Positions 286 through 20,820 of a stretch of 64,000 nucleotides of DNA are shown one piece after another (within the stretch, counting starts at the first letter, position 1; each line of letters opens with the position of its first letter). Origin of the DNA: Chloroflexota bacterium (GTDB lineage: Bacteria > Chloroflexota > Anaerolineae > UBA2200); the NCBI GenBank assembly GCA_014360905.1, contig JACIWW010000001.1, forward strand, positions 146,692 to 210,691, in the 5' to 3' direction. A program made the translations under genes and the position numbers. The notes under the pieces were generated by a model. That model did not search any database, was not told the origin of the DNA, and worked only from the letters and a program-made list of their open reading frames with translations.

Positions 286-1077
286 ATGAAACTCAAAGGC
301 AGGACCGCGCTTGTAACTGGCGCGAGCCAGGGGATAGGCAAGGCAATCAGCCTGGCATTAGCTGAAGCTGGCGCTGATGTGATTGTAAACTGCGACCGAA
401 ACATGACAGCGGCAGAGGCCGTGGCACAGGAAATACGAGCACTGGGCTGTCGAGCGATCGCCGTCCAGGCAGATGTCTCCAAGTGCGATCAGGTCACCCG
501 CATGGTGCAACAGGCTCTGGCGGCCTTTGGCACCATTGACATCTTGGTCAACAATGCAGGCATCTTCATCCCTAGCCCCATCGAAGATTTGAGAGAAGAG
601 GACTGGGATCGGGTGATAGATGTGAACTTGAAGGGCGTCTTTCTCTGCTGTCAGGCAGTGGGCAGACACATGATTGAGAGAAAAGCAGGTGGATCTATCA
701 TCAACGTAGCTTCCATATCTGGCCACATGCCTGAAATCAACGGCGGTGCCTACTCACCCAGCAAAGCCGGCGTGCTCGCACTAACATGCCTTCTCGCCGT
801 TGAGTGGGCCAAGTATGGGATCCGTGTCAATGCCCTGAGCCCAGGGCCCATCATGACGCCTTTGCAGCGCGCTGCCTTCCCTAGCGAGAAACTCCTGGCT
901 GCAAGGAATCGAGCAGTGCCTATGAATCGGCACGGCTTGCCCGAAGAGATGGCTAAAGTCGCGGTCTTTCTCGCTTCCGATGACGCCAGCTATATCACAG
1001 GTGCGGACATCACGGCTGATGGAGGATCGCTGGTGAGTATGTTCTACCTAGTTCGCCAACTGGCCGAGTGCGCGTGA
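286..1077 (+). CDS. SDR family NAD(P)-dependent oxidoreductase
   Basis: MKLKGRTALVTGASQGIGKAI is a TGxxxGIG Rossmann motif, and YSPSKAG matches the YxxxK catalytic motif. RBS AAGGGGAG 8 nt upstream of the ATG at 286; the ORF-track start at 184 is rejected. Confidence 0.8.
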   Translation: MKLKGRTALVTGASQGIGKAISLALAEAGADVIVNCDRNMTAAEAVAQEIRALGCRAIAVQADVSKCDQVTRMVQQALAAFGTIDILVNNAGIFIPSPIEDLREEDWDRVIDVNLKGVFLCCQAVGRHMIERKAGGSIINVASISGHMPEINGGAYSPSKAGVLALTCLLAVEWAKYGIRVNALSPGPIMTPLQRAAFPSEKLLAARNRAVPMNRHGLPEEMAKVAVFLASDDASYITGADITADGGSLVSMFYLVRQLAECA

Positions 1078-1119
1078 GAGCTCGCGCCAGGCTAAGCTCT
1101 TTATGCAATCGAGGCAAAA

Positions 1120-2400
1120 ATGTCACTGAAACTCAGCGAAAAAGATCAACGCATGTTACGAGGAGAGTATGGCAAGGCAGCAAAGCTAGCCATGTCTATC
1201 CTGGTCAGGATGGCTGAAGTATATGGCGCCGAGGAAATGATCGACGTAAGCCTGGCACACATTGACGGCGTAGGGCTGCTGAGCGAAGCTAGTTTGGAGT
1301 TTGCGGAGACTCTAGCTTCATTGGGTGGAAAGGTTTCCATACCGACCACCCTTAACATGGTGCCACTCGACACGCAGCAGTGGCAAAAATGGCACATCCC
1401 TGAGGACTATGCCAGTCGTGCCCTCCGTCAGATTCAGGCTTATATTCACATGGGTTGTGTCCCTACCTGTACTTGCGCACCGTATCAAGGCTACCTAACG
1501 CCGAGGTTCGGCCAACAAATCGCTTGGGCTGAATCCAATGCAATTGTATTCGCCAATTCTGTCCTAGGCGCAAGAACCAATCGCTATGGGGACTATATAG
1601 ACATTTGCGCTGCCATCACTGGCAGAGTTCCCAAATACGGCCTGCACCTCACTCCCAACCGCAAGGGCCAGCTCTTGCTGCGCTTGGTGGATATCGAGCC
1701 AGAAGCAATGATGAATGACATCTTCTACCCACTATTGGGCCATTTTTTGGGACGCATCGCAGAGGACAAGATCCCGGTCATCGCGGGGCTGCCTGCGCAG
1801 GTTAACGATGACCAATTCAAAGCTCTGGGGGCAGCAGCGGCTTCTTCAGGGGCTGTTGCCCTCTTCCATGCGGAGGGGATAACCCCAGAGGCGCCTACTC
1901 TGGAACAAGCCTTCCAGAATACGGCCCCAGAAAAGGTCATTCCTGTTCGTCCAGCGGAGTTGGTAGCCGCACTGAGAGAACTCTCCACAGCAAAAGCGGA
2001 TACCCCACTCGATGCCATTGTCCTTGGCTGCCCCCACTTCTCTTTTGCGGAGTTTCAGCAACTGGCACGTTTGATCGAAGCCCAAGAGGGCCGAACAGTG
2101 CACTCAAGAGTGCGGTTTATTGTGCTAACCAATCAGCTCACTTACTCTCTGCTGCAGAGGAGCAACTTGATCACGCTGCTGACGGGCTTTGGCGTCCAAA
2201 TTGTCTTGGATACTTGCGATTTCCACTGCCCAATACTTTCCCCAACGACGAAAGTGATTATGACCAACTCGGGAAAGCAAGCCTACTATGCCCCTGGCGA
2301 GCTGGGAGTGCAGGTTGCCCTTGGGAGCATGGCGGATTGTGTACAATCTGCAGTAGAAGGACATGTTGTTAGGAGAGAAACACTGTGGAAAGAATCATGA
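1120..2400 (+). CDS. AcnX (DUF521) large catalytic subunit, aconitase-X family dehydratase (cis-3-hydroxy-L-proline dehydratase-like)
   Basis: 426 aa with the MLRGEYGKAAKLAM...HIDGVG N-terminus typical of DUF521/AcnX. Followed, with overlap, by a DUF126 swivel-domain partner. Confidence 0.65.
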   Translation: MSLKLSEKDQRMLRGEYGKAAKLAMSILVRMAEVYGAEEMIDVSLAHIDGVGLLSEASLEFAETLASLGGKVSIPTTLNMVPLDTQQWQKWHIPEDYASRALRQIQAYIHMGCVPTCTCAPYQGYLTPRFGQQIAWAESNAIVFANSVLGARTNRYGDYIDICAAITGRVPKYGLHLTPNRKGQLLLRLVDIEPEAMMNDIFYPLLGHFLGRIAEDKIPVIAGLPAQVNDDQFKALGAAAASSGAVALFHAEGITPEAPTLEQAFQNTAPEKVIPVRPAELVAALRELSTAKADTPLDAIVLGCPHFSFAEFQQLARLIEAQEGRTVHSRVRFIVLTNQLTYSLLQRSNLITLLTGFGVQIVLDTCDFHCPILSPTTKVIMTNSGKQAYYAPGELGVQVALGSMADCVQSAVEGHVVRRETLWKES

Positions 2401-2822
2401 TTGGGAAACCGGTCATACCTGGTTCAGCAAAGGGAGTAGCTGTAGTATCCAAAGAACCATTGAGCTTGTGGGGCGGCTTGAATGCCTACACCGGAGAGAT
2501 CATTGACCGGCGACATGAGCGTTCAGGAGCTATTGTTACGGGCAAAGTATTCGTCTTTCCACAAGGCAGGGGCTCTAGCACAGCCAGCGCTATCCTCGTG
2601 GAGAGCGTAAAAGCGGGAACAGCCCCAGCCGCTATCATCAACCTAAAAGTGGATCCGATCCTGGCTTTGGGCGCAATTGTGGCTGATGAGCTATATCACA
2701 AAACTGTTCCCATCGTTGTTGTATCAGCGGAAGACTTTCAAACGATCCAGGAGGGCGATTATCTGGAGATCACGCTGGACGGCACGATTACCCTCCGTAG
2801 GAAGGACAACTTGACCACATGA
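2385..2822 (+). CDS. AcnX small subunit (DUF126 swivel domain)
   Basis: 145 aa, IGKPVIPGSAKGVAVVSKEPLSLWGGLN...VFVFPQGRGSS...AIIN pattern of DUF126. GTG start overlapping the large-subunit stop, with RBS AGGAGAG upstream. Confidence 0.6.
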   Translation: MERIMIGKPVIPGSAKGVAVVSKEPLSLWGGLNAYTGEIIDRRHERSGAIVTGKVFVFPQGRGSSTASAILVESVKAGTAPAAIINLKVDPILALGAIVADELYHKTVPIVVVSAEDFQTIQEGDYLEITLDGTITLRRKDNLTT

Positions 2823-2844
2823 AGATACATCGTAGGTTGGAGCT

Positions 2845-3981
2845 ATGTCTCCTGACGTAGTGGTAATTGGCGGGGGCATCATTGGCGCTTGCTGCGCCTA
2901 TTACCTCTCTCTTGCAGGGCTCAGGGTGTACCTTGTGGAGAGGGGTGGAATAGCCTCTGGTTGCTCAGGAGCCTGCCAATTCGGCATCGGACACATTAAC
3001 TCAGGAATTGGCAGAGACCTAACCATAGCCAGTGGAAAGCTTTATGCTGACCTCGCTGAACAGCTTCCTCTGGATATCGAATACGATCGGGTGGGGAATA
3101 TTTACATCGCAGATAGCCCTAAGGGCATGAAAGCGTTGGAACGCACTATGCAACTGGTGCAGCGCAGCGGAATGCGTTGCCAGCTCCTAAACGAAAAGGA
3201 ATTGCACGAGTCGGAGCCTTATTTATCATCTGAGTTAGTGGGAGGGCTTTTCTTCCCGGATGATGCCAAGGTGCAGCCCATTCTAGCTACGCTGGCTTTT
3301 GTCAAAGCGGCCAAAGAGAGGGGAGCAACGATCCTGACCTTCACCGAAGTCACAGGCATTGAGCTTACAGCCAGCAAAGCGGTGACGGCCGTGTTTACAA
3401 CGGCTGGGCGGATCCCAACAAAAGCCGTCGTGAATGCCGCAGGAGCTTGGAGTGCTTCCATCGGGAAAATGGTGGGCGTGGAAATACCCGTGATTCCACG
3501 CAAAGGCCACATCGTCGTAACGGAGCCTGTCCCTCCCATGATCAATACCTACCTATTGGATGCCAGTTACTTTGAGGCAGTAGAAGAGGATGCGCACAGA
3601 ATTGCTGTCGCGATGGTGCTGGGACAAACACGCAGTGGTAACATCTTGTTGGGAAGCAGTCGGCAGTTCGCAGGCTTCGATCGCTCTGTGGACCACGAGG
3701 TGGTACGTTCCATGATCAACCGCTGCCTTCGCTTTCTGCCGGCCCTTGCCAATGTCCACGCCATTCGCATCTATGCAGGGCTGCGGCCGTACACGCCTGA
3801 TCTCCTCCCTATCATTGATGGAGTCGAGGAGGTGCCAGGCTTTTACATCGCCGCAGGGCATGAGGGAGAGGGGATCACGATGGGGCCCATCACCGGCAAA
3901 CTGATTAGTCAAATGATCACGGGGCAGAAACTTGATCTGCCTGTAGAACAGTTATCGTTATCGAGGTTCGTGAATTCCTGA
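2845..3981 (+). CDS. FAD-dependent oxidoreductase (DAO family), putative D-hydroxyproline dehydrogenase
   Basis: N-terminal VVVIGGGIIGACCAYYL is a GxGxxG FAD dinucleotide fold. C-terminal region AGLRPYTPD...GFYIAAGHEGEGI is typical of DAO/sarcosine-oxidase-beta-type enzymes. Confidence 0.7.
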   Translation: MSPDVVVIGGGIIGACCAYYLSLAGLRVYLVERGGIASGCSGACQFGIGHINSGIGRDLTIASGKLYADLAEQLPLDIEYDRVGNIYIADSPKGMKALERTMQLVQRSGMRCQLLNEKELHESEPYLSSELVGGLFFPDDAKVQPILATLAFVKAAKERGATILTFTEVTGIELTASKAVTAVFTTAGRIPTKAVVNAAGAWSASIGKMVGVEIPVIPRKGHIVVTEPVPPMINTYLLDASYFEAVEEDAHRIAVAMVLGQTRSGNILLGSSRQFAGFDRSVDHEVVRSMINRCLRFLPALANVHAIRIYAGLRPYTPDLLPIIDGVEEVPGFYIAAGHEGEGITMGPITGKLISQMITGQKLDLPVEQLSLSRFVNS

Positions 3982-4044
3982 TTCGTTTTACGGGGCATGT
4001 AATCTGGTTGTTCGTTATCAATACTTAAAAGGAGGCACGTAACG

Positions 4045-5079
4045 ATGAGATTTAATAGACTCATCACAGCGGTGGATTCACACACCGAAGGGGAGCCAGC
4101 GAGAGTTGTCATAGGCGGAATCCCTCCTATTCCTGGGAAAACCATGGTCGAGAAATGGCTGTGGGCGCAGAAGAATCTAGACGATGTGCGCACGATGCTC
4201 ATGTTTGAACCGCGTGGCAGCAACATCCAGTCTGGTAGCATCATCACTGCGCCGGCGCATCCAGAAGCAGATGTGGGGGTGCTCTTCATCGAAGTCAGCG
4301 GCTTCCTGCCCATGTGTGGACATATGACTATTGCTACCTGCACAGTGTTGGTGGAAACAGGCATGGTGGAAGCCAAGGAACCGGTGACCAATATTGTCCT
4401 GGATACCCCAGCTGGGCTCGTCAGAGCAAAAGTGCGCGTTGCAAACGGCCAGGTACAGGATGTGACTTTCCAAAATGTCCCTGCTTTCCTTTATAAACGC
4501 GATGTGGTGGTTGACGTGCCCGAACTGGGAAAAGTGAGGCTAGACATTGCATGGGGCGGAAATTTCTATGCTATTCTCCCTGCAGAGAGCGTAGGTTTGG
4601 AACTGGTCCCCGAACGCGCCAAAGAGATCGTGGACAAGGGTTCGAAGATAAGGGAAGCGGTCTTTGATCAGGTACAAATCGCGCATCCGGAAAACCCGGC
4701 TATTGACCGCTGCACTCACGTGCGGTTTGTAGCACCGTCCACCAATCCGAAAGCAACGGCAAAGAATGCCGTCCTCTATGGGGTTGAAGCCATAGATCGT
4801 TCCCCATGTGGTACGGGGACATCAGCAGAAATGGCTGCTCGCTATGCCAAGGGTGAACTCAAATTGAATGAAGAGTTTGTCAGCGAAAGCATCATTGGCA
4901 GCCTTTTCTATGGCAAACTCATAGAGGAAACAACCGTAGGTTCGTTCCCTGCAGTCGTGCCCACGATCAGAGGCAGCGCCTACATCAGCGGTCTTCAGCA
5001 ATTCGTGCTCGATCCCAGGGATCCCTGGCCGCATGGATTCTATGTGGGGCCAAAGAGCAAATGGGGTGCCGAGTTCTAG
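4045..5079 (+). CDS. Proline racemase family protein (Cys/Cys type: proline racemase or 4-hydroxyproline 2-epimerase)
   Basis: MRFNRLITAVDSHTEGEPARVVIGG plus the MCGH motif and DRSPCGTGTSA, so both catalytic Cys are present. Strong RBS AAAGGAGG. Confidence 0.8.
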   Translation: MRFNRLITAVDSHTEGEPARVVIGGIPPIPGKTMVEKWLWAQKNLDDVRTMLMFEPRGSNIQSGSIITAPAHPEADVGVLFIEVSGFLPMCGHMTIATCTVLVETGMVEAKEPVTNIVLDTPAGLVRAKVRVANGQVQDVTFQNVPAFLYKRDVVVDVPELGKVRLDIAWGGNFYAILPAESVGLELVPERAKEIVDKGSKIREAVFDQVQIAHPENPAIDRCTHVRFVAPSTNPKATAKNAVLYGVEAIDRSPCGTGTSAEMAARYAKGELKLNEEFVSESIIGSLFYGKLIEETTVGSFPAVVPTIRGSAYISGLQQFVLDPRDPWPHGFYVGPKSKWGAEF

Positions 5080-5178
5080 ACTAGACTGGTAAACCAGCAC
5101 CCGACGAACAAAAGATGGTTTCGCCCTTCAGTAGGTCAAAATACAAGGCTAATCAAATTATCGAGGAGGTATTCGCTT

Positions 5179-6093
5179 ATGGACAAGCAATCAAAAAGTG
5201 CTCGCAAGCCATTGGAAGGTGTTTTCCCTCTGCTACCCTTTGCTATAAAAGAAAACCAGGAGCCTGACTTGGATGGACTGGCGCATAACGTTGAGTTCCT
5301 GGCCAAATCGGGCGTCCATGGCTTCATCATCTTCGGCTGCATGGGAGAATTCTATGCCCCCAGCGAAGCAGAATTCAACCTGGTTGTAGATGCGGCAGTG
5401 CAAGCCGCAGCTGGAAGGCTGGCAGTCGTTGTGGGAACTACCTTCCAGAATGCGAAGGAATGTATTCGCCGAACCAAGTATGCTGAACGCGCCGGTGCCG
5501 ATGGGGTCATGATTGCGCCTCCCTACGTGATTAACCCCACCGAGGAGGTTGTTTTCGAACACTATCGCGCCATCAACGAGGTGGTGGATGAGATTCAAAT
5601 CATGGCTTACAACTATCCGCCTCTTCCCAGGGGATTCAACATGACTCCTGCCTTCTGGGACAGGCTCCTAGAGCTGGAGCACATCAAGGCAGTAAAGGAA
5701 TCCAATGGCGACGTCTGGCATCGGGTGAATGTGCTCACCAAAATAGCCGACAAGATCAACGTCTTCTCCGGTGGCGAGGGATGGCTGTTCAGCGATGTCC
5801 TGTTAGGGGGCAAGGGAATCGTGTCGCTATTCGGGATTGCCGTTCCAAAAGCGGTGCTGGCTTTGTACAATGCCTGTATGAATAGGGATCTGAACAAAGC
5901 GATACCCTTGTACCGCAAGTTCACGCAACTTTGCGGCTACCTCACTTCCGAAAATGAGGTGGCATACCTCAAAGCGACCGCTGAGATTGGCGGACAGAAA
6001 GCTGGCCGTCCCAGAGCGCCTTATCAACCATTGGACCCAGCAGTGCACCAAGTGCTGGAAAGATATTTAACTGAACTCGCTTCAATAGAATAA
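5179..6093 (+). CDS. DapA/DHDPS-family lyase (putative 1-pyrroline-4-hydroxy-2-carboxylate deaminase or 2-keto-3-deoxy-acid dehydratase)
   Basis: FGCMGEFYAPSEAE (the GxxGE motif) and the Schiff-base Lys context IKAVKESNGD. RBS GAGGAGG. Confidence 0.7.
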   Translation: MDKQSKSARKPLEGVFPLLPFAIKENQEPDLDGLAHNVEFLAKSGVHGFIIFGCMGEFYAPSEAEFNLVVDAAVQAAAGRLAVVVGTTFQNAKECIRRTKYAERAGADGVMIAPPYVINPTEEVVFEHYRAINEVVDEIQIMAYNYPPLPRGFNMTPAFWDRLLELEHIKAVKESNGDVWHRVNVLTKIADKINVFSGGEGWLFSDVLLGGKGIVSLFGIAVPKAVLALYNACMNRDLNKAIPLYRKFTQLCGYLTSENEVAYLKATAEIGGQKAGRPRAPYQPLDPAVHQVLERYLTELASIE

Positions 6094-6230: not shown

Positions 6231-7274
6231 ATGAAATTCAGCAGAATACTTACCGCAATTGACTCGCATACCGGGGGCAACCCAGAGAGAGTGGTCATCG
6301 GAGGAGTGCCGCCCATCCCTGGGGAGACTATGTTGGAGAAACTGAAATACGTGCGCCACCATTTGGACTCCCTCCGTACCTTTCTCGTGCACGAACCTCG
6401 GGGGCATAGCAACATGTATGCTTCCTTGCTCATTCCACCCACAGTGGATGGCGCAGATTTTGGAGTGCTCTACCTAGAGCCAGGTGGTTACGCGACCATG
6501 TGCGGGCACGGCACCATTGCCATTTGCACCGTCTTGGTGGAAATGGGCATGGTGACAGTGAAAGAGCCGATGACCAGGATTGTGCTCGACACCCCTGCCG
6601 GCATAGTCCAAGCCGACGTGGCAGTGAAAGATGGCATGGCGGAGTCTGTAACCATTCAGAACGTCCCCTCCTTTCTCTATAAAGCAGATGTAGAGGTGGA
6701 TGTCCCAGGAATAGGGCGGGTAAAGGTGGACATTGCCTACGGCGGCAATTTTTACGCCATCCTGCCCGCAGAGAGTGTAGGCTTGGAGATCTCACCAGAG
6801 CATGCGAACGAAATTATCTCATGTGGCACTAAGATTTGGCAAGCAGTCAATGAACAGGTAGAGATCCACCACCCAGAAGCTCCAGAAATCAATTGTATCA
6901 ATTATGTAGAGTTCTCTGCGCCGCCAACACACCCAAAAGCCACGCTGAAGAACGCGGTTGTGGTGCCCCCTGCTGGCATAGACCGCTCTCCTTGCGGCAC
7001 TGGGACAAGCGCCAAGATGGCTACGCTCTACGCCAAGGGAGAATTGGGTTTGCACGAGGAATTCGTCCACGAGAGCATTATCGGCAGCCTTTTCTACGGT
7101 CGGCTAATTGAGGAGACCAAGGTCGGTCCGTTTGCTGCGGTCGTGCCCACGATCAAAGGCAGCGCCTATATCATGGGCATCCAACAGTTCGTGCTCGACC
7201 CCAGAGACCCCTTCCCCACCGGGTTTCTGCTGGGAAAGCAGGAAAAACTGTACGGCGTTGATTTTGGCTCCTAA
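6231..7274 (+). CDS. Proline racemase family protein (second Cys/Cys paralog)
   Basis: MKFSRILTAIDSHTGGNPERVVIGG, MCGHGT and DRSPCGTGTSA. About 60% identical to the 4045 paralog by eye. RBS AGGAGGGG. Confidence 0.8.
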   Translation: MKFSRILTAIDSHTGGNPERVVIGGVPPIPGETMLEKLKYVRHHLDSLRTFLVHEPRGHSNMYASLLIPPTVDGADFGVLYLEPGGYATMCGHGTIAICTVLVEMGMVTVKEPMTRIVLDTPAGIVQADVAVKDGMAESVTIQNVPSFLYKADVEVDVPGIGRVKVDIAYGGNFYAILPAESVGLEISPEHANEIISCGTKIWQAVNEQVEIHHPEAPEINCINYVEFSAPPTHPKATLKNAVVVPPAGIDRSPCGTGTSAKMATLYAKGELGLHEEFVHESIIGSLFYGRLIEETKVGPFAAVVPTIKGSAYIMGIQQFVLDPRDPFPTGFLLGKQEKLYGVDFGS

Positions 7275-7286
7275 GGAGGCTATGTA

Positions 7287-8171
7287 ATGGAAAAGTGGCG
7301 TGGGGTCTATGCGGTCATGCTCACTCCTTTCCAAGCCGATGAATCGTTGGACAAGGAAGCACTGAGGAGACATATAGACTTTTTGATTGCAGAGGGGATT
7401 CATGGCATTATCGCAACGGGCAGCACAGGGGAATTTGCCTCCCTGTCTGACGAAGAACACAAGAGAGTGGTGGACATCACCATTGAGCAAGCGCGTGGCA
7501 GGGTGCCTGTGCTGGTGGGTTCGGCAGCCAATTCCACCCAACATACCATTATGTATTCTCAGTATGCAGAACAGGCCGGTGCGGATGGCTTGATGGTCGT
7601 CGCCCCCTACTATTGCCACCCCAGCGAACGGGAACTATATGAGCATTACAAAGCTGTGGCTGAAAGCGTACGCATCCCGATCATGATCTACAACAATCCG
7701 GTGACTAGCGGAGTGGATATGCGTCCAGAGCTACTGGCACGGCTGGCTGAGATCGATAATATTTCTTATGTCAAAGAAGCCACTGGTGATATCCGGCGTG
7801 TTGGGCAGATTAAGAGACTATGCGGCGATAAGATGAGTGTCTTCGTTGGCTGCGACAACGTCATGTTGGAATGCTGGCTCATGGGCGCTGATGGTTGGGT
7901 ATCTGGTTCAGCCAATATCATTCCCGCCCGATGCGTTGAGCTGTACGAACTTACAATCAAGGGGCAAATTGACCAAGCCAGAGAGCTGTATTACCGGATG
8001 CTGCCCCTGGGAGATATGCTTGACCTCGAAGGGTCGTTTGTCCAATACCTGAAAGCCGGTTCGGAATTGCTAGGACGTCCGCTAGGAAAGCCCAGAAGAC
8101 CTCTGTTGCCACCTCTGGAAGAAGATCTTGAGAGGCTGAAAGCGGCACTTGACCTGGTAACCGGGAAATGA
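7287..8171 (+). CDS. DapA/DHDPS-family lyase (second paralog)
   Basis: IIATGSTGEFASLSDEE and SYVKEATGD carry the DHDPS-family motifs. RBS AAGGAGG. Confidence 0.7.
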   Translation: MEKWRGVYAVMLTPFQADESLDKEALRRHIDFLIAEGIHGIIATGSTGEFASLSDEEHKRVVDITIEQARGRVPVLVGSAANSTQHTIMYSQYAEQAGADGLMVVAPYYCHPSERELYEHYKAVAESVRIPIMIYNNPVTSGVDMRPELLARLAEIDNISYVKEATGDIRRVGQIKRLCGDKMSVFVGCDNVMLECWLMGADGWVSGSANIIPARCVELYELTIKGQIDQARELYYRMLPLGDMLDLEGSFVQYLKAGSELLGRPLGKPRRPLLPPLEEDLERLKAALDLVTGK

Positions 8172-8186
8172 GGATAGGAGGTAAGC

Positions 8187-9860
8187 TTGGAAACACGGCA
8201 TAACTTCTTTGTCGGTCCACAGGCGGCACACCGCAGGCAGATATACAAAGGTGCTGGCTACACACACGATGATTTTGGCAAGCCATTGATCGGAGTAGCC
8301 AACTCTTGGACAGAAGCCTCGCCTGCACACATGCATCTCCGGCAACTGGCGGAAGTGGTAAAAGCAGGAATCTGGCAGGCCGGAGGAGTCCCGTTCGAGT
8401 TTGGACTTTTTGCTACCTGCGGCAACATCGCTATCGGGACAGAAAACATGAAGTACGAGCTGGCGATCCGCGATGTCCTTGCGGCGTCCATAGAAATTAT
8501 GTCCATGGTGCATCTGTTTGATGGCTTGGTCCTACTGGCTTCGTGCGACAACATTATCCCCGGCCACCTCATGGGCGCAATTAGGGTAGATTTGCCCTCC
8601 ATCATGGTCACTGGCGGGCCAATGCTAGCGGGAAAATGGCGCGAAGGCACGGTATTAGCCCCCGATGTGAATGAGGCAGTGTTCGGTGCCCTCCCCCTGA
8701 AGCACATTAGCGAACAAGACCTGCGCGAAATGGAGGAATGTTCTTGTCCTGGGCCTGGCGCCTGTCCGGTCATGGGGACTGCCAACACTATGCAAATTCT
8801 GACCGAGGCCATGGGCATGGCTCTATCTGGCTCAGCCACAATTCCCGCCATCTCAGCGGATAGATTAAAGGTGGCTCGCCGGTCCGGTCAGCGTATTGTT
8901 GAACTGGTGAAAGAGGATGTGCGTCCTTCTCGTATCCTCGATGAGAGAGCCCTCAGGAATGCTATCGTCGTGAATGCAGCGATTGGTGGCTCCACAAATG
9001 CACCTCTCCATATCATTAGCATGGGAAAAGAGCTTGGAATACAAATAGAACTGGATTTGTTCGATGAAATCAGCCGTAAGACTCCGCTTTTAGCTTCTGT
9101 CATCCCCAATGGCCCTCATACGGTAGTTGATTTCCACGAGGCGGGGGGAGTCCCTGCATTGCTGAAAGAATTGGGAGACCTGATCGACGGCAGTGCTTTG
9201 ACCGTTGATGGCAGGACTGTGGGTGAAAATGTCCAACAAGTTCGTGGAAGCCGGGGCCCTGCTATCTCCAGCAGGGATCAGCCGGTGCAAGCCGAGGGCG
9301 GTCTGGCTGTGCTCAAGGGAAACATCGCGCCTCGTGGCGCCATCGTGCGCACCTCTGCCATCAAGAAGGAAATGCTAGTACACAGAGGTCCAGCGAAAAC
9401 CTTTAACAGCGACCAAGAAGCCTGGAAAGCGATTATAGAAGGCAGAATCCAACCTGGCGATGTGATCGTGGTGCGTTATGAAGGCCCCAAAGGCGCACCA
9501 GGCATGAAGGAGGTGATGCTATCTACCGATGCCCTATATCGTATTGGCCTGGAGGGTTCGGTCGGACTGATTACCGATGGCCGTTTTTCTGGGTTCAACC
9601 GCGGTCCCATTGTGGGTCACGTATCGCCAGAAGCCATGGAGGGCGGCGTTATCGCCATCATCGAAGATGGGGATATGATTGAGATTAACATCCCCGCTCG
9701 CCAGTTGCACGTGGAGTTGCCGGAAGAAGAGATTCAAAGACGCCTAGCCCACTGGCGCGCACCAGAACCCAAGACCAAGACGGGGTTCCTCGCACTTTAT
9801 GCGCAGATGGCATTGCCAGCCGATCAAGGCGCGGCAATGCAGAAATGGAGACATACCTAA
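8187..9860 (+). CDS. IlvD/EDD family dehydratase (dihydroxy-acid / sugar-acid dehydratase)
   Basis: 557 aa. [15 protein letters not shown]...CGNIAIGT...CDNIIPG...[17 protein letters not shown] includes the CPG[PS]G(A/S)C Fe-S motif. TTG start with RBS AGGAGG. Confidence 0.8.
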
Positions 9861-9881
9861 ACTAAACCACATAGAAGGAGG

Positions 9882-11771
9882 GTGAAAATGTTCGGCTACA
9901 TGGGGAAAATCCTACGCGTGAATCTCACCAACAACAGAATAACGGTCGAGAAGTTGGCAGAGGACGTTGCCAGAGCCTTCCTTGGCGGTAGAGGCTTGGG
10001 TGCGAAAATATTGTTTGATGAACTCAAGCCCGGCATTGACCCTCTAGGCCCTGAGAACAAACTGGTTGTAGCCGCCGGCGTGGTGACGGGCTTGCCTTTC
10101 GGCGGAAATTGCCGCTACGTCATTGCGGGCAAATCACCACTAACCGGCATTTGGGGAGAGTCGAACGCCAGCGGCTTCTTCGGGCCAGAACTCCGATTCG
10201 CTGGTTTCGACGCTATTATCATCGAGGGGCAGGCTGAAAAGCCAGTCTATCTGTGGATCCACAATGGCAAAGCTGAGATCAGAGCTGCCAGCCATCTGTG
10301 GGGCAAAATCACCGGGGACACCGAAAGGTTGATCAAAGAGGAGCTGAAAGATGAGCATATACGGATCGCCTTGATAGGGCCAGGTGGCGAGAATCTGGTG
10401 AGGTACGCTTGTGTGCTGAGCGATATCCACCATGCTAACGGCAGAAGTGGCATGGGTGCCGTGATGGGCTCAAAGAAGCTCAAGGCGATTGCGGTTCGTG
10501 GCACCCAGAAGATCCCGCTTGTAGACCGCGAACGAGTCCTCCAACTCGCTAAGCAAGCAAATCAGGAAGTGTGGGAAGGTGCCTACAAAGACCTATTGCA
10601 TAAGTATGGCAGCGACGGTGACTTGGATGACCTCCATGCCACAGGCCGATTGCCAACGAAGAACTTCCAAAAATGCACCTTCGATGATTATGAAAACATC
10701 ACTGGAGAAACCATCGCAGAAACAATCTTGGTAAGACGGGATCCCTGTTTTGCCTGCCCCGTGACATGCAACTTGGTAGTTGCTGCCAAAGAGCCGTACG
10801 AGGTTGATCCAACCTATGGTGGACCAGAGTACGAGACGGCCGCTGCCTTAGGCTCCCTGTGCATGAACGGCAACCTGGTTGTCTTGTGCAAGGCCAACGA
10901 ACTCTGCAATAAGTACTCGCTAGATACCATTTCGACCGGCGTGACGATCGCCTTTGCCATGGAATGCTACGAGAAGGGCCTGATCACTAAGGAAGACACT
11001 GGTGGGCTGGAGCTGACTTGGGGCAGCGACCAAGCGATCATCCAGCTCATCGAGAAGATTGCCAAACGAGAAGGCATTGGCAATCTGCTGGCTGAAGGAG
11101 TCAAGAGAGCAGCGGAGAAAATTGGCAGAGGCGCCCAGAGTTTTGCTATGCATATTAAGGGGCAGGAAGTGCCTATGCACGAACCCAGAGGAAAGAAAGG
11201 CGTTGGATTGTCCTATGCTGTCTCTAATCGGGGAGCCTGCCACCTTCAAGCCGAACACGACGACTTCTTCGAGGATCCTGCCTGGCTATTCCCCGAAATT
11301 GGCCTAGACAAGACAATAGACAGGCTAGATATGGGGAGAGAGAAAGCCAGGATGGTTAAGGTTTTAGGGGACTTTAAGGCTCTCTATGATAGCCTCTCTG
11401 TGTGCATGTATGCATCATGGCCCGAAGGCGGCGTCAGGTTGCAGACGATCAAAGATATAGTAGCAGCCGCAACCGGATGGGATGTCACCTTGGCTGAACT
11501 GATGACCGTCGGAGAAAGGGCATTCAACCTTTGCCGTGCTTTCAACGTTCGGGAGGGGATTTCGAGAAAAGACGATGTGCTACCCACACGGCTGATGGAG
11601 CCGCTTCCCGAAGGTCTGTATCAGGGTGAAGCCATCCCAGAGGACCAGTTCCGCCAAATGCTAGACTACTACTATGAGTTCCGGGGATGGAATAAAGAAA
11701 CAGGTATCCCAACTAAGGAAAAACTGGAGGAACTGGGGCTGGGATACGTGGCTGCAAAACTTAAGGCCTAA
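9882..11771 (+). CDS. Aldehyde:ferredoxin oxidoreductase (AOR family, tungsten/molybdopterin enzyme)
   Basis: 629 aa. MFGYMGKILRVNLTNNRITVE is a classic AOR N-terminus, and CFACPVTC is the CxxCxxxC 4Fe-4S motif. RBS AAGGAGGGTG. Confidence 0.8.
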   Translation: MKMFGYMGKILRVNLTNNRITVEKLAEDVARAFLGGRGLGAKILFDELKPGIDPLGPENKLVVAAGVVTGLPFGGNCRYVIAGKSPLTGIWGESNASGFFGPELRFAGFDAIIIEGQAEKPVYLWIHNGKAEIRAASHLWGKITGDTERLIKEELKDEHIRIALIGPGGENLVRYACVLSDIHHANGRSGMGAVMGSKKLKAIAVRGTQKIPLVDRERVLQLAKQANQEVWEGAYKDLLHKYGSDGDLDDLHATGRLPTKNFQKCTFDDYENITGETIAETILVRRDPCFACPVTCNLVVAAKEPYEVDPTYGGPEYETAAALGSLCMNGNLVVLCKANELCNKYSLDTISTGVTIAFAMECYEKGLITKEDTGGLELTWGSDQAIIQLIEKIAKREGIGNLLAEGVKRAAEKIGRGAQSFAMHIKGQEVPMHEPRGKKGVGLSYAVSNRGACHLQAEHDDFFEDPAWLFPEIGLDKTIDRLDMGREKARMVKVLGDFKALYDSLSVCMYASWPEGGVRLQTIKDIVAAATGWDVTLAELMTVGERAFNLCRAFNVREGISRKDDVLPTRLMEPLPEGLYQGEAIPEDQFRQMLDYYYEFRGWNKETGIPTKEKLEELGLGYVAAKLKA

Positions 11772-11791
11772 AGCGGAGTGGATGAACCGCT

Positions 11792-12070
11792 ATGAAGCTC
11801 ACCATCGGCTTCTATTGTGGACTTGCACGGCGTCTGAGCAAGGAAACAGAAGCGGAGATAGAGGTAAACGATGGCGCTACCCTGCGCGACGTTGGTGCAG
11901 CTCTGGCACAGAGATTTCCTGCCTTTTTGGGACCGCTCATCACTCCAGGGACACATGATCTCGTGGAACCGCACTTTTTCCATGTGAATGGCCGCCGCGC
12001 TGCTAACATGGATATGCCTGTGCAGGAAGGAGATCGCATCCTATTGATGACTGTTACAGCGGGAGGCTAG
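11792..12070 (+). CDS. MoaD/ThiS-like small sulfur-carrier/ubiquitin-fold protein
   Basis: 92 aa ending in a Gly-Gly C-terminus (...LLMTVTAGG), immediately downstream of the AOR gene. Confidence 0.5.
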   Translation: MKLTIGFYCGLARRLSKETEAEIEVNDGATLRDVGAALAQRFPAFLGPLITPGTHDLVEPHFFHVNGRRAANMDMPVQEGDRILLMTVTAGG

Positions 12071-12082
12071 AGGAGGCAGGAG

Positions 12083-12577
12083 TTGTGCCAGCAATCAGCA
12101 CCGAAGCGACTGCCACCCAGCGTACAAAGAGTTCAGGAAGCACTCCAGCACTTGGGCTTTCCATACCAAGTGCTGGAGTTGCCACAAAGCACGCACACGG
12201 CTGCCGAAGCCGCACAAGCCGTGGGCTGCACCGTTGGGCAAATCGTCAAGTCCCTGGTCTTCCGTGGCAAAGAGACGCACAAGCCCATCCTAGTCCTTGC
12301 CAGCGGTGCTAACCGCGTGAACGAAAAAATGCTCGCGCAACTAATCGGCGAGCCCGTCGAGAAAGCAGATGCCGACTATGTGCGCGAGCAAACCGGTTTT
12401 GCCATTGGTGGCGTGCCACCTATTGGCCACATCCAGCCGCTTCCAACTTATATTGACCATGATTTGCTGCAGTATGACGAAATCTGGGCAGCAGCCGGCA
12501 CGCCTCACGCTGTTTTCCGCCTCACGCCCACTGCTCTGGTGCGCATGACCGGTGGTACGGTCATCCCTGTCGCATAA
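12083..12577 (+). CDS. YbaK/ProX-type aminoacyl-tRNA trans-editing deacylase (free-standing)
   Basis: 164 aa. ...ILVLASGANRVNEKMLAQLIGEPVEKADADYVREQTGFAIGGVPPIGH is a YbaK/ProRS-associated domain. TTG start 6 nt after AGGAGG. Confidence 0.6.
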   Translation: MCQQSAPKRLPPSVQRVQEALQHLGFPYQVLELPQSTHTAAEAAQAVGCTVGQIVKSLVFRGKETHKPILVLASGANRVNEKMLAQLIGEPVEKADADYVREQTGFAIGGVPPIGHIQPLPTYIDHDLLQYDEIWAAAGTPHAVFRLTPTALVRMTGGTVIPVA

Positions 12578-16823: not shown

Positions 16824-20642
<3,819 letters not shown>

Positions 20643-20765: not shown

Positions 20766-20820
20766 TTGCTTAACTGGTTGTTCTACTACGATGAGGAAAG
20801 CGGAGATAAAGGAAAAAGAC

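What the first reader, a model, noticed from the sequence alone, without database searches (positions are those of the whole stretch)
286..12577. Hydroxyproline-type catabolic island wired to a tungsten aldehyde:ferredoxin oxidoreductase and an IlvD/EDD dehydratase
Several gene products match bacterial 3-/4-hydroxyproline catabolism:
- AcnX (DUF521 + DUF126)
- A DAO-family FAD oxidoreductase
- Two proline-racemase-family proteins
- Two DapA-family lyases

In that pathway D-Hyp dehydrogenase, Pyr4H2C deaminase and cis-3-Hyp dehydratase all feed alpha-ketoglutarate semialdehyde (KGSA). The canonical last step is an NAD(P)-dependent KGSA dehydrogenase (aldehyde dehydrogenase family), which is absent here. 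Instead the operon continues, with strong RBSs and tight spacing, into an IlvD/EDD-family dehydratase, an AOR-family tungsten enzyme and a MoaD-like protein.

The IlvD/EDD dehydratase plus the second DapA-like enzyme would fit a pentonate or hexarate route that also ends at KGSA. AOR could then be a ferredoxin-linked KGSA-to-2-oxoglutarate oxidase at a convergent node. That would be an unusual, possibly anaerobic variant of these pathways.
Basis: partly seen in the sequence, partly recalled or inferred. Interest (0 to 1): 0.6.

Follow-up and report, generated by a model that had tools for sequence, protein, structure and literature searches.

The report
Anaerobic hydroxyproline island with tungsten AOR
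A Chloroflexota bacterium carries a one-strand gene island for breaking down hydroxyproline-like amino acids in which the usual NAD-dependent final enzyme is missing and three unusual enzymes (a tungsten aldehyde oxidoreductase, an altered IlvD-type dehydratase and a vitamin-B12 mutase-like protein) are conserved partners, pointing to an undescribed anaerobic version of the pathway.

Summary
All the named families are present at 286-12577 on the + strand, with Pfam E-values from 1e-25 to 1e-141, 12-27 nt gaps from ProRac2 to the end, and GGAGG-type ribosome-binding sites.

- **Supported:** no aldehyde dehydrogenase lies in the 64-kb window, in 10 kb upstream of a syntenic relative, or in eight related loci. 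AOR of this clade sits next to DapA-type, proline-racemase or D-amino-acid-oxidase genes in four different architectures in two phyla.
- **Wrong or unsupported:**
  - AcnX makes pyrroline-2-carboxylate, not KGSA.
  - Both racemase-family genes have the Cys/Cys pair of epimerases.
  - The "IlvD" is not an added sugar-acid enzyme. It belongs to a coherent variant subfamily (120 of 120 relatives) that has lost two Mg2+ ligands and breaks both PROSITE signatures. It is a core island member alongside amino-acid transporters.
  - The island extends upstream to a glutamate-mutase-like B12 protein with no Pfam model for its catalytic domain.
- **Limits:** AOR is frequent but not universal in these islands, and KGSA as its substrate is inferred, not shown.

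No paper in the library links AOR, IlvD or B12 enzymes to hydroxyproline. I rate it a new variant of a known pathway, with probably new enzyme functions.

The parts
1..272 (+). 3' end (last 90 codons) of a 582-aa adenosylcobalamin-mutase-like gene: glutamate-mutase-E-like TIM barrel fused to a DxHxxG B12-binding domain
286..1077 (+). Short-chain dehydrogenase/reductase (263 aa). Possibly a cyclic ketimine (Pyr2C) reductase; that function is inferred only.
   Evidence: PF13561/PF00106 at 1e-65 to 1e-69. Start is at 286, after an AAGGGGAG site. Orthologues lie in L081, L171 and L172. In L086 the place is taken by a DapB-like reductase, and OCD is present in L082 and L088.
1120..2400 (+). AcnX large subunit (two-subunit type)
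   Evidence: PF04412, 1.6e-141. [quoted passage not shown] D203, N233, C273, E292, S293, N294, K530 and Y534 are kept. I206 is Gly, S449 is Cys, and one Cys of CxC is lost.
2397..2822 (+). AcnX small (swivel) subunit. The ORF is listed from GTG 2385; ATG 2397 overlaps the upstream stop (ATGA).
   Evidence: PF01989, 2.3e-25. W35, S70 and T72 are kept and C71 is Ser. The start context is shown.
2845..3981 (+). Homomeric DAO-family FAD oxidoreductase (candidate D-hydroxyproline/D-proline dehydrogenase)
   Evidence: PF01266, 1.5e-78. It is below every NCBIfam equivalog cut-off; the best matches are ThiO and D-amino-acid dehydrogenase.
4045..5079 (+). Proline-racemase-family protein 1, Cys/Cys type (2-epimerase/racemase)
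   Evidence: PF05544, 1.5e-130. Motifs MCGH (Cys91) and DRSPCGTG (Cys255) are present. It is paired with DapA1 here and in L173.
5179..6093 (+). Divergent DHDPS/NAL-family protein (DapA1)
   Evidence: PF00701, 2.3e-42. It is below the dapA cut-off (136 against 206 bits). The Schiff-base Lys and Tyr133 are kept, while Thr44/45, Tyr107 and Arg138 are replaced. It is 35% identical to DapA2.
6231..7274 (+). Proline-racemase-family protein 2, Cys/Cys type. This is the paralogue that travels with DapA2, the B12 protein and IlvD*.
   Evidence: PF05544, 3.1e-132. The Cys/Cys motifs are present. Orthologues at 71-84% identity lie in L081, L088, L171 and L172.
7287..8171 (+). [quoted passage not shown] It is not a true DapA.
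   Evidence: PF00701, 3.2e-80. The best solved relative is the P. aeruginosa DapA paralogue 3NA8, not PaDapA. Lys161, Tyr133 and Tyr107 are kept and Arg138 is Thr. The same subfamily sits next to AOR in L046, L086 and L174.
8187..9860 (+). Variant IlvD/EDD-family Fe-S dehydratase (IlvD*)
   Evidence: PF00920 + PF24877. It only just passes the ilvD cut-offs (648 against 618 bits). The sequence has SPAH, TCGN in place of (S/C)DG, CDN in place of CDK, and SGFNRG. All 120 best homologues share these changes. The control canonical DHAD in L164 has CDG/CDK. The roles of the motifs come from PMC5770437.
9888..11771 (+). Tungsten-type aldehyde:ferredoxin oxidoreductase, AOR sensu stricto clade. The ORF is listed from GTG 9882; ATG 9888 fits the homologues and the GGAGG spacing.
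   Evidence: PF02730 + PF01314. 499-508 bits to P. furiosus AOR 1AOR and to 9MQX. The CxxCxxxC motif plus the 4th Cys, the Glu of EYE and the His of CH are conserved. The start is shown.
11792..12070 (+). MoaD/ThiS-like small protein ending in GG (AOR cofactor-maturation accessory)
   Evidence: PF02597, 3.3e-7. moaD_arch subfamily, 1.7e-7, below its cut-off. It follows AOR in L081, L082, L083 and L086. 16 of 143 AOR loci have a GG-ending small ORF in this place.
12083..12577 (+). YbaK/ProX-type free-standing aminoacyl-tRNA(Pro) editing domain, last gene of the operon
   Evidence: PF04073, 3.6e-31. It scores below the YbaK_EbsC cut-off. It is conserved at the same place in L081. It lies 12 nt after MoaD, and a 259-nt gap follows.
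12704..16655 (+). Promoter-like site (12704-12733) and a 1272-aa regulator-like protein (winged helix + BTAD + AAA_16 + SBP_bac_5), a possible sensor/regulator of the island
   Evidence: The promoter-like site matches 11 of 12 positions and has a TG. A 1273-aa orthologue sits in the same place in L081. A regulatory link to the island is inferred only.

Best explanation
The region is the downstream two-thirds of a catabolic island of about 22 kb, all on one strand, for hydroxyproline-type imino acids in an anaerobic Chloroflexota bacterium.

**Shown**
- The gene families, the operon-like layout and the catalytic motifs.
- The co-conservation patterns.
- The absence of any ALDH-family gene.

**Inferred pathway**
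1. An amino-acid (LIV-type) ABC transporter, encoded just upstream of the window in relatives, imports the substrates.
2. The Cys/Cys proline-racemase paralogues 2-epimerise them.
3. The DAO-family dehydrogenase oxidises the D-imino acid to a pyrroline-2-carboxylate.
4. The DapA2-type lyase converts the 4-hydroxy form to alpha-ketoglutarate semialdehyde.
5. AcnX dehydrates a cis-3-hydroxy imino acid to pyrroline-2-carboxylate. Because its active site carries Ile206Gly, the substrate may bear a 4-substituent.
6. A reductase (SDR, DapB-like or OCD) returns pyrroline-2-carboxylate to proline. Alternatively, the HemL-like aminotransferase found in relatives transaminates the ring-opened form to the same semialdehyde.
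7. The tungsten AOR, matured with its MoaD-like partner, oxidises the aldehyde to 2-oxoglutarate with ferredoxin. It takes the place of the NAD(P)-dependent KGSA dehydrogenase.

**The two other non-canonical partners**
- The 'IlvD' is not a sugar-acid or branched-chain enzyme. It belongs to a distinct Fe-S dehydratase subfamily that keeps the three Cys and the Ser base but has lost two of the four Mg2+ ligands. It most likely dehydrates a 3-hydroxy imino or amino acid that AcnX cannot take.
- A glutamate-mutase-like B12 protein is a further conserved member. Its substrate is unknown.
For: **Families and layout:**

**Synteny at 81-92% protein identity:** L081/L084/L085. Upstream of the window's equivalent lie a heteromeric DAO set, a third DapA, a LIV ABC transporter, a HemL-like aminotransferase and the B12 protein.

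**No Aldedh:** none in the scanned window ORFs of at least 400 aa. None in the Pfam lists of L081, L082, L084, L086, L088, L171, L172, L173 or L174. The canonical neighbourhoods contain DAAO + DHDPS + ALDH (PMC4113996).

**AOR linked to DapA0/2-type genes in four architectures:**
- window/L081: ProRac2-DapA2-IlvD*-AOR
- L086: AOR-MoaD-DapA2-B12
- L174: DapA-ProRac-AOR, with AOR 73% identical
- Clostridia L046: PyrRedox-Fer4-BFD-DAO-DapA-AOR, with AOR only 45% identical, so probably an independent recruitment

**Other support**
- Archaeal AOR relatives often have a class-III aminotransferase directly upstream, in L102, L113 and L145. This fits AOR oxidising amino-acid-derived semialdehydes.
- The AOR cofactor and catalytic residues are intact.
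- AcnX keeps the residues that bind the ring nitrogen and carboxylate of cis-3-Hyp.
- Both ProRac paralogues are Cys/Cys.
- DapA2 lacks the Arg138 needed by a true DapA.
- The IlvD* motif changes occur in 120 of 120 homologues. Its neighbourhoods are always AcnX, ProRac and LIV ABC.
- A YbaK-type tRNA(Pro) editing gene closes the operon. This would make sense if proline analogues accumulate.
Against: - No enzyme here has been assayed. KGSA as the AOR substrate rests only on neighbourhood and on the missing ALDH.
- AOR is absent within 10 kb in L171, L173 and L088, and those loci have no ALDH either. The aldehyde step may therefore be encoded elsewhere or may not exist in the core pathway.
- L082 has IlvD*-AOR-MoaD with AcnX and the B12 protein but no DapA, DAO or ProRac.
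- L095 has IlvD* and AOR in one operon with Hdr-like genes and no hydroxyproline genes at all. This ties AOR to IlvD* at least as strongly as to DapA.
- L174, L088 and L171 lack a DAO gene to make the DapA substrate.
- AORs of this clade are broad-specificity enzymes.
- The roles of IlvD*, the B12 protein, DapA1 and the SDR are guesses.
Confidence: 0.42

Rival explanations
1. AOR and IlvD* form a two-step unit that acts after a DapA-type aldolase. The lyase cleaves a 4-hydroxy-2-oxo acid to pyruvate plus a hydroxy- or amino-aldehyde. AOR oxidises that aldehyde to the acid, and IlvD* dehydrates or deaminates the acid to a 2-oxo acid. This is the logic of the non-phosphorylative Entner-Doudoroff lower branch (glyceraldehyde to glycerate to pyruvate). 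KGSA is not the AOR substrate.
For: - The gene order is DapA2-IlvD*-AOR, with 15-27 nt gaps.
- IlvD* and AOR co-occur in the window and in L081, L082, L086 and L172 (there with a different AOR).
- They also co-occur in L095, which has no hydroxyproline genes at all.
- DHDPS-family enzymes include many pyruvate aldolases (NCBIfam hits).
Against: - A C5 imino acid gives pyruvate plus a C2 aldehyde, and a C2 acid cannot be an IlvD-type substrate.
- IlvD* has lost Mg2+ ligands that bind the 2-hydroxy-carboxylate of sugar-acid-type substrates.
- L174 and L046 have DapA-AOR without IlvD*, and L171 and L173 have IlvD* without AOR.
Confidence: 0.2
2. The island is not primarily for hydroxyproline. It is for another amino acid or cyclic imino acid: proline or D-proline, ornithine, a dihydroxyproline, a hydroxypipecolate or a betaine-derived imino acid. 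The glutamate-mutase-like B12 enzyme performs the key rearrangement. The hydroxyproline-like annotations reflect family resemblance only.
For: - The B12 protein's steadiest partners are ProRac2, DapA2, OCD and LIV transporters (L088, L089, L171).
- AcnX has Ile206Gly at the position that packs against C4-C5 of the ring.
- No NCBIfam equivalog cut-off for a hydroxyproline enzyme is reached by any gene.
- MTTB-family methyltransferase genes lie nearby in L046 and L086.
- The heteromeric dehydrogenase set resembles the archaeal alpha-beta-gamma-delta proline dehydrogenase (PMC4364671).
Against: - The AcnX residues for the pyrrolidine nitrogen, the carboxylate and the 3-OH are conserved.
- The combination ProRac(Cys/Cys) + DAO + DHDPS is the signature of the 4-Hyp route.
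- A tRNA(Pro)-editing gene in the operon points to proline analogues.
Confidence: 0.2
3. IlvD is a pentonate or hexarate dehydratase, and the second DapA is a 2-keto-3-deoxy-acid dehydratase. Sugar acids and hydroxyproline then both end at KGSA, which AOR oxidises.
For: - Weimberg-type routes use IlvD/EDD and DHDPS-family dehydratases, and an SDR could be a sugar 1-dehydrogenase (family hits).
- The IlvD scores 395 bits against L-arabinonate dehydratase 5J84.
Against: - The IlvD lacks the Asp/Glu92-equivalent and the carbamylated Lys that hold the Mg2+ used by pentonate dehydratases.
- Every examined neighbourhood of the subfamily has amino-acid (LIV or Opp) transporters, AcnX and ProRac, and none has a sugar transporter or a lactonase.
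- DapA2 travels with ProRac2 and the B12 protein (L088), not with sugar genes.
Confidence: 0.06
4. The adjacency carries no pathway meaning. IlvD is the housekeeping dihydroxy-acid dehydratase, and AOR/MoaD is a general aldehyde scavenger that happens to lie downstream.
For: - NCBIfam calls the protein ilvD, at 648 against 618 bits.
- AORs are broad-specificity enzymes, and most relatives at 70% identity or less are in unrelated contexts.
Against: - The trio IlvD*-AOR-MoaD is kept in three lineages whose other genes are shuffled.
- None of eight IlvD* loci has ilv or leu genes, whereas the canonical DHAD in L164 sits by leuA and hom.
- The subfamily breaks motifs described as fully conserved in the family.
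Confidence: 0.07

Closest known systems
Bacterial trans-4-hydroxy-L-proline pathway (4-Hyp 2-epimerase, D-Hyp dehydrogenase, Pyr4H2C deaminase, KGSA dehydrogenase; Pseudomonas/Sinorhizobium lhp/hyp clusters)
   Same: Cys/Cys proline-racemase-family genes, a DAO-family dehydrogenase (plus a heteromeric set upstream in relatives) and DHDPS-family lyases are clustered with a transporter.
   Different: There is no ALDH-family KGSA dehydrogenase anywhere in the cluster. A tungsten AOR with a MoaD-like partner occupies the operon's distal end. The host is an anaerobe-type Chloroflexota. Additional IlvD*, B12 and AcnX partners are present.
cis-3-hydroxy-L-proline route: AcnX (LhpI) dehydratase plus Pyr2C reductase (Watanabe 2016, 2021)
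   Same: AcnX is closest to the A. tumefaciens enzyme and keeps W35, S70, T72, D203, E292, S293, K530 and Y534. OCD-, SDR- or DapB-type reductases are in the loci.
   Different: It is the two-subunit type. The Cys set is Cys273/Cys449/one Cys of CxC, resembling the archaeal [4Fe-4S]-type ligands rather than Type-I or Type-IIa. Ile206 is Gly and Cys71 is Ser. Its subclass among Type-IIa-f could not be assigned.
IlvD/EDD dehydratases (dihydroxy-acid, pentonate and 6-phosphogluconate dehydratases)
   Same: The fold and length match, with both Pfam domains. Three Cys, the Ser base, Asp of the CD(K) motif and the Glu463-equivalent are kept.
   Different: The Lys of Cys-Asp-Lys (carbamylated Mg2+ ligand) is Asn or Ser. 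The Asp/Glu92-equivalent Mg2+ ligand is Gly. SG[GA][ST] is SGFN. The genomic context is imino-acid catabolism, not ilv/leu or sugar-acid genes.
Glutamate mutase (GlmE/GlmS) and other adenosylcobalamin isomerases
   Different: The two parts are fused in one 582-aa chain. Identity to GlmE is 13%. Neither Pfam nor NCBIfam has a model for the barrel. No methylaspartase or citramalate genes lie nearby, and no invariant Lys occurs in the B12 domain, unlike the PLP-dependent aminomutases.
Pyrococcus furiosus AOR and bacterial AOR operons with a MoaD-like gene
   Same: It scores about 500 bits to 1AOR. The [4Fe-4S] Cys ligands and the Glu/His catalytic residues are kept, and a GG-ending MoaD-like gene lies downstream.
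   Different: It is embedded in an imino-acid catabolic operon. No AorA/AorC-type electron-transfer subunits are adjacent in the window.
Anaerobic hydroxyproline routes via glycyl-radical enzymes (HypD dehydratase)
   Same: Both are anaerobic solutions for hydroxyproline degradation (PMC7077986, listed).
   Different: No glycyl-radical enzyme or activase is present here. The radical enzyme candidate is B12-dependent and the front end is the oxidative epimerase/dehydrogenase type.

Membership tests
Canonical 4-hydroxyproline catabolic cluster | 4-Hyp 2-epimerase: proline-racemase family with a Cys/Cys catalytic pair | tested here: met
   Both paralogues carry MCGH and DRSPCGTG. Substrate preference (Pro against 4-Hyp against 3-Hyp) was not determined; both score below the NCBIfam equivalog cut-offs.
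Canonical 4-hydroxyproline catabolic cluster | D-hydroxyproline dehydrogenase (DAO family) and Pyr4H2C deaminase (DHDPS family) in the cluster | tested here: inconclusive
   The families are present, and DapA2 lacks the DapA-specific Arg138. No sequence-level marker for deaminase against aldolase was available, and no activity data exist.
Canonical 4-hydroxyproline catabolic cluster | NAD(P)-dependent KGSA dehydrogenase (ALDH family) | tested here: not met
   No PF00171 hit in the scanned window ORFs of at least 400 aa, nor in nine related loci with precomputed Pfam.
[quoted passage not shown] | C3LHyp-binding landmark residues: W35, S70, C71, T72, D203, I206, E292, S293, K530, Y534 | tested here: inconclusive
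   8 of 10 residues are kept. C71 is Ser and I206 is Gly in all six Chloroflexota orthologues. The residue roles come from PMC8184944.
[quoted passage not shown] | Type-I [2Fe-2S] ligand set Cys273, Cys508, Cys510 | tested here: not met
   One Cys of the CxC pair is missing, and the Ser449 position is Cys, which is the archaeal-like three-Cys set.
Dihydroxy-acid dehydratase / IlvD-EDD canonical enzymes | PROSITE motif 1, Cys-Asp-Lys-x2-Pro-[GA], with the carbamylated Lys as Mg2+ ligand | tested here: not met
   The window has CDNIIPG. Among 120 homologues, 59 have Asn, 59 have Ser and none has Lys at that position. The motif is described as fully conserved in PMC5770437.
Dihydroxy-acid dehydratase / IlvD-EDD canonical enzymes | Acidic Mg2+ ligand equivalent to Glu92 of CcXyDHT (Asp of SDG/CDG) | tested here: not met
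   The window has TCGN. The Cys aligns with the Cys of CDG in the canonical L164 DHAD, and the Asp is replaced by Gly.
Dihydroxy-acid dehydratase / IlvD-EDD canonical enzymes | Fe-S Cys ligands and the catalytic Ser of T-D-G-R-x-S | tested here: met
   The Cys of TCG, the Cys of CDN, the Cys of GAC and the Ser of GRFSG are conserved.
Dihydroxy-acid dehydratase / IlvD-EDD canonical enzymes | Both Pfam domains, and the NCBIfam ilvD cut-off | tested here: met
   PF00920 and PF24877 both match. TIGR00110 scores 648.2 against a cut-off of 618.15. The automatic name 'dihydroxy-acid dehydratase' therefore follows from overall similarity, not from the active site.
4-hydroxy-tetrahydrodipicolinate synthase (true DapA) | Schiff-base Lys161, Tyr133/Tyr107/Thr44 triad and Arg138 for aspartate semialdehyde | tested here: not met
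   DapA2 and DapA0 have Lys, Tyr and Tyr but Thr in place of Arg138. DapA1 also lacks Thr44/45 and Tyr107.
Tungsten aldehyde:ferredoxin oxidoreductase (AOR sensu stricto) | AFOR_N + AFOR_C domains, the four [4Fe-4S] Cys ligands and the Glu313/His448 equivalents | tested here: met
   Metal content (W against Mo) and substrate range are not testable here.
Adenosylcobalamin-dependent isomerase (glutamate-mutase-like) | Substrate TIM barrel plus a Rossmann domain with DxHxxG (base-off/His-on) | tested here: met
Adenosylcobalamin-dependent isomerase (glutamate-mutase-like) | Sequence membership of a described mutase family (Pfam Met_asp_mut_E, MM_CoA_mutase or Lys-AminoMut_A) | tested here: not met
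   Only a sub-threshold PF02310 hit was found, at 25 bits against a 32.1 cut-off. NCBIfam gives only a weak methylaspartate mutase S hit.

The most novel reading that the evidence does not exclude
The island encodes an undescribed anaerobic route for hydroxylated prolines that contains three new enzyme functions at once:
- a ferredoxin-linked tungsten AOR acting as the alpha-ketoglutarate-semialdehyde oxidase;
- a Mg-site-less IlvD/EDD subfamily (now annotated everywhere as dihydroxy-acid dehydratase) that dehydrates a 3-hydroxy imino or amino acid;
- a fused glutamate-mutase-like B12 enzyme that rearranges a proline-derived substrate.
Probability: 0.25. Interest if true: 0.8.

Novelty: new variant of a known kind. 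Interest (0 to 1): 0.64.

Why it matters
Hydroxyproline from collagen and plant cell-wall glycoproteins is an abundant carbon and nitrogen source. The known anaerobic routes rely on glycyl-radical enzymes, and the oxidative route ends in an NAD(P) aldehyde dehydrogenase. A ferredoxin-linked ending would conserve low-potential electrons and would explain how anaerobic Chloroflexota in sediments use such compounds.

Three practical consequences follow:
- At least 120 clusters of IlvD/EDD proteins, at 90% identity and drawn from metagenomes, are automatically named dihydroxy-acid dehydratase although they lack residues held to be invariant for that chemistry.
- A family of about a thousand glutamate-mutase-like B12 proteins has no model for its catalytic domain and no known substrate, yet it has a clear genomic context that makes it testable.
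- AOR enzymes rarely have a defined physiological substrate. This context offers one.

Tried and rejected
- **Exact look-up of the window's AcnX protein** found nothing, so the window's own upstream DNA could not be read. The 81-92% identical relative L084 was used instead.
They returned mostly relatives at 70% identity or less, from Bathyarchaeia, Hadarchaeota and Asgard archaea. These lack the hydroxyproline genes and missed the close Chloroflexota loci. They still yielded L046, L095 and the aminotransferase-AOR pairs.
- **Pentonate/hexarate reading of IlvD:** rejected on active-site and neighbourhood grounds.
- **Housekeeping ilvD and dapA readings:** rejected on motif and context grounds, although both genes pass NCBIfam cut-offs.
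- **B12 protein as a PLP-dependent aminomutase:** there is no invariant Lys in the B12 domain. This weakens the idea but does not exclude it.
- **First reading of the IlvD motif:** I took it to mean that the first cluster Cys was lost. This was corrected after comparison with a CDG-type DHAD.
- **The 582-aa ORF in L173:** it is not a B12-protein homologue.
- **Literature searches** linking AOR, IlvD or adenosylcobalamin with hydroxyproline or KGSA gave nothing relevant.

Full report
**1. What is in the sequence**

Between 1 and 12577 all real genes are on the + strand:

| Coordinates | Gene |
|---|---|
| ...272 | last 90 codons of a B12-binding protein |
| 286-1077 | SDR |
| 1120-2400 | AcnX large subunit |
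| 2397-2822 | AcnX small subunit (ATGA overlap with the large subunit) |
| 2845-3981 | DAO-family oxidoreductase |
| 4045-5079 | ProRac1 |
| 5179-6093 | DapA1 |
| 6231-7274 | ProRac2 |
| 7287-8171 | DapA2 |
| 8187-9860 | IlvD/EDD |
| 9888-11771 | AOR |
| 11792-12070 | MoaD/ThiS-like, ends in GG |
| 12083-12577 | YbaK-type tRNA-editing domain |

- Pfam E-values run from 1e-25 to 1e-141, except for the small MoaD-like protein (3e-7).
- From ProRac2 onward the gaps are 12-27 nt, and most starts are preceded by GGAGG-like sites.
- After 12577 there is a 259-nt gap containing the best promoter-like site of the region (12704-12733). A 1272-aa BTAD-AAA16-SBP5 regulator-like gene follows.

**2. Source and relatives**

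- The IlvD protein is 100% identical to an nr entry from a 'Chloroflexota bacterium'.
- The AOR is 87-91% identical to proteins of Chloroflexi MAGs. The next tier, at 55-70%, is from Bathyarchaeia and Hadarchaeota.
- A metagenome contig (L081/L084/L085) is syntenic gene for gene at 81-92% protein identity and shows what lies upstream of the window. In order:
  - a Pyr_redox_2 / Fer4 / Fer2_BFD / DAO set, like the heteromeric D-hydroxyproline or archaeal proline dehydrogenases;
  - a third DHDPS gene (DapA0);
  - a LIV-type ABC transporter;
  - a HemL-like class-III aminotransferase;
  - the full 582-aa B12 protein.
- The island is therefore about 22 kb, and the window holds its distal two-thirds.

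**3. The canonical parts**

*ProRac paralogues.* Both carry the Cys/Cys pair (MCGH ... DRSPCGTG), so they are racemases or epimerases, not Cys/Thr trans-3-Hyp dehydratases. They are 63% identical to each other.

*AcnX.*
- It keeps the residues that bind the ring nitrogen, the carboxylate and the 3-OH.
- In all six Chloroflexota orthologues Ile206 is Gly, Cys71 is Ser, Ser449 is Cys, and one Cys of the CxC pair is missing.
- Ile206 packs against C4-C5 of the ring and is thought to exclude 3,4-dihydroxyproline. A substituted substrate is therefore possible.
- The product of this enzyme family is pyrroline-2-carboxylate, which is reduced to proline.

*DapA paralogues.*
- DapA2 and DapA0 (61-64% identical) keep the Schiff-base Lys and the Tyr residues but have Thr in place of Arg138, so they are not true DapA although they pass the TIGR00674 cut-off.
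- Their best solved relative is a P. aeruginosa DapA paralogue.
- DapA1 is a divergent third type.

**4. The 'IlvD'**

- It passes the ilvD cut-offs only narrowly.
- It scores about equally against a cyanobacterial DHAD (433 bits) and L-arabinonate dehydratase (395 bits).
- Its active site differs from the canonical one:
  - the Lys of Cys-Asp-Lys is Asn here, and Asn or Ser in all relatives. This Lys is described as fully conserved, and when carbamylated it is a Mg2+ ligand;
  - the acidic Mg2+ ligand equivalent to Glu92 of the xylonate dehydratase is Gly;
  - the SG[GA][ST] part of the second signature is SGFN.
- The three Cys, the Ser base and the other two Mg2+-ligand positions are kept.
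- All 120 best database relatives (60-100% identity) share these changes.
- A canonical archaeal DHAD picked up by chance (L164, beside leuA and hom) has CDG, CDK and SGAT.
- The variant's neighbourhoods are consistent:
  - L171: LIV ABC, aminotransferase, ProRac2, SDR, AcnX L+S, IlvD*, DapA2, B12.
  - L172: AOR-family gene, LIV ABC, AcnX L+S, SDR, ProRac2, IlvD*.
  - L173: PyrRedox, Fer4, ProRac1, DapA1, IlvD*, AcnX L+S.
- None of these loci has a sugar transporter, a lactonase or ilv/leu genes.
- IlvD* is therefore a core member of the imino-acid island, not a graft from a pentonate pathway.
- My inference, not shown: loss of the Mg2+ site that chelates a 2-hydroxy-carboxylate fits a 2-amino or 2-imino 3-hydroxy acid substrate. 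One candidate is a 3-hydroxyproline isomer that AcnX cannot take, since AcnX performs only anti elimination from the cis-L isomer.

**5. The B12 protein**

- Only its C-terminus is in the window.
- The family has about 1100 hits. It has no Pfam model for residues 1-440.
- It has a DVHEHG (DxHxxG) B12 motif, and its model is confident (pLDDT 91).
- Its steadiest neighbours are ProRac2, DapA2, OCD and LIV transporters (L088, L089, L171).
- Its substrate is unknown. It is a conserved but unexplained part of the system.

**6. Is AOR wired to the island?**

*Evidence for a link*
- IlvD*-AOR-MoaD is conserved in three Chloroflexota lineages whose other genes differ:
  - L082: aminotransferase, AcnX, B12, IlvD*, AOR, MoaD, SDR, OCD, with no ProRac, DAO or DapA.
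  - L086: AcnX-S, IlvD*, DapB-like, AOR, MoaD, DapA2, B12.
- In L174 an AOR 73% identical follows DapA(0/2-type)-ProRac(Cys/Cys) behind an Opp transporter, without IlvD*, AcnX or B12.
- In a Clostridia MAG (L046) an AOR only 45% identical follows PyrRedox-Fer4-BFD-DAO-DapA, with AcnX genes 3 kb downstream.
- Of the 16 AOR homologue clusters at 73% identity or more, at least eight lie on contigs that also carry IlvD* and/or the B12 protein. I judged this from identical longest-contig lengths, or directly from loci. Four of the other eight are on contigs shorter than 5 kb; the remaining four (10-32 kb) showed no match.
- No ALDH-family gene appears in any of these loci (section 1), whereas canonical neighbourhoods contain one.
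- Archaeal relatives of the AOR often have a class-III aminotransferase directly upstream (L102, L113, L145). This fits oxidation of amino-acid-derived semialdehydes.
- The AOR belongs to the broad-specificity AOR clade and has all cofactor ligands.

*Evidence against a link*
- L171, L173 and L088 have core genes but no AOR within 10 kb.
- Most AOR relatives at 70% identity or less are in unrelated contexts.
- In L095 an IlvD* (54% identical) and an AOR (63% identical) share an operon with Hdr-like and ferredoxin genes and no hydroxyproline genes.
- AOR is thus a frequent, probably repeatedly recruited, accessory of the island. It is linked both to DapA0/2-type lyases and to IlvD*.

**7. Most likely mechanism and rivals**

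*Best-supported reading (0.42).* The AOR/MoaD pair supplies the aldehyde-oxidising step that the missing KGSA dehydrogenase would perform, using ferredoxin.
- KGSA can come from DapA2-type deamination of pyrroline-4-hydroxy-2-carboxylate.
- Where DapA is absent (L082), it could come from transamination of ring-opened pyrroline-2-carboxylate by the HemL-like aminotransferase.

*Rivals*
- **AOR plus IlvD* as an 'aldehyde to hydroxy-acid to 2-oxo-acid' pair behind an aldolase (0.20).** This explains L095 and the gene order, but it fails on carbon count for C5 substrates.
- **The island serves another imino or amino acid, with the B12 enzyme as its key step (0.20).**
- **Meaningless adjacency (0.07).**

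**8. Comparison with what is known, and novelty**

- The front end matches the oxidative 4-Hyp route and the AcnX 3-Hyp route.
- The differences are the ferredoxin-type ending, the variant IlvD/EDD subfamily, the fused glutamate-mutase-like protein, and the tRNA(Pro)-editing gene in the operon.
- Searches of the paper library found nothing connecting AOR, IlvD/EDD or adenosylcobalamin enzymes with hydroxyproline or KGSA. The large neighbourhood study of the proline racemase superfamily mentions none of them.
- Papers in subscription journals are not covered by the library, so prior description cannot be excluded.
- I rate this a new variant of a known kind, of above-average interest because it gives testable contexts for two unannotated or mis-annotated enzyme families and for an AOR.

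Noticed in passing
window 1-272 (+); full length in L082:6404-8146 and L084:10001-11749: A 582-aa fused glutamate-mutase-like adenosylcobalamin protein. About 1100 homologues were found and sources annotate it 'methylmalonyl-CoA mutase cobalamin-binding subunit' or 'hypothetical'. Its 440-aa TIM barrel has no Pfam or NCBIfam model. It travels with ProRac2, DapA2, OCD and LIV transporters.
   Followed up: partly
window 12083-12577 (+): A free-standing YbaK/ProX-type tRNA-editing domain is the last gene of the operon and is conserved in L081. It may clear tRNA(Pro) mischarged with hydroxyproline-like analogues while they are being catabolised. It scores well below the YbaK_EbsC cut-off, so it may be a separate subtype.
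   Followed up: partly
window 12704-16655 (+): A strong promoter-like site precedes a 1272-aa protein that joins a winged-helix/BTAD (SARP-like) domain, an AAA_16 STAND ATPase and a C-terminal SBP_bac_5 peptide/opine-binding domain. This is an unusual one-polypeptide sensor-regulator architecture. A 1273-aa orthologue sits at the same place in L081.
   Followed up: no
L095:2837-11917 (+): A variant IlvD* (54% identical) heads an operon with an HdrA/FlpD-like protein, HdrC/B-like proteins, a polyferredoxin, a small Fer4 protein and an AOR (63% identical). There are no hydroxyproline genes. This is a second, independent IlvD*-AOR link, possibly involving electron bifurcation.
   Followed up: partly
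L046:2901-5271 and L086:12905-20014: MTTB-family (non-pyrrolysine trimethylamine-methyltransferase-like) and AP_endonuc_2 (xylose-isomerase-like TIM) genes lie beside the hydroxyproline/AOR genes in two unrelated genomes. This hints that N-methylated prolines (stachydrine, betonicine) may feed the same island.
   Followed up: no
L086:3620-5762: An AcnX small (swivel) subunit gene lies directly upstream of IlvD* with no AcnX large-subunit gene in the locus. The preceding gap is only about 520 bp.
   Followed up: no
L102, L113, L145 (AOR at 4334, 1446 and 4293): Bathyarchaeia-type AORs, 58-61% identical to the window's, have a class-III aminotransferase gene immediately upstream on the same strand. 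This suggests an amine to aldehyde to acid couple.
   Followed up: no
window 16824-24674 (+): Two very large proteins follow the regulator: a 1272-aa protein with Sortilin/BNR repeats and a 1218-aa protein with a CBM96 domain. L081 instead has a beta-helix/NosD-like protein and a CBM96 protein at this place.
   Followed up: no
window 24754-25836 (-), 33756-35060 (+), 43074-44642 (+): Two URO-D-family (MtaA/MT2-like) genes and a B12-binding radical-SAM gene lie further along the window. Together with the B12 mutase-like gene, they indicate heavy corrinoid use by this organism.
   Followed up: no
window 8187-9860 and 7287-8171: NCBIfam equivalog cut-offs for ilvD (648 against 618 bits) and dapA (250 against 206 bits) are passed by proteins that lack residues essential for those activities. 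Automatic annotation of this island as branched-chain or lysine biosynthesis genes is therefore misleading.
   Followed up: yes
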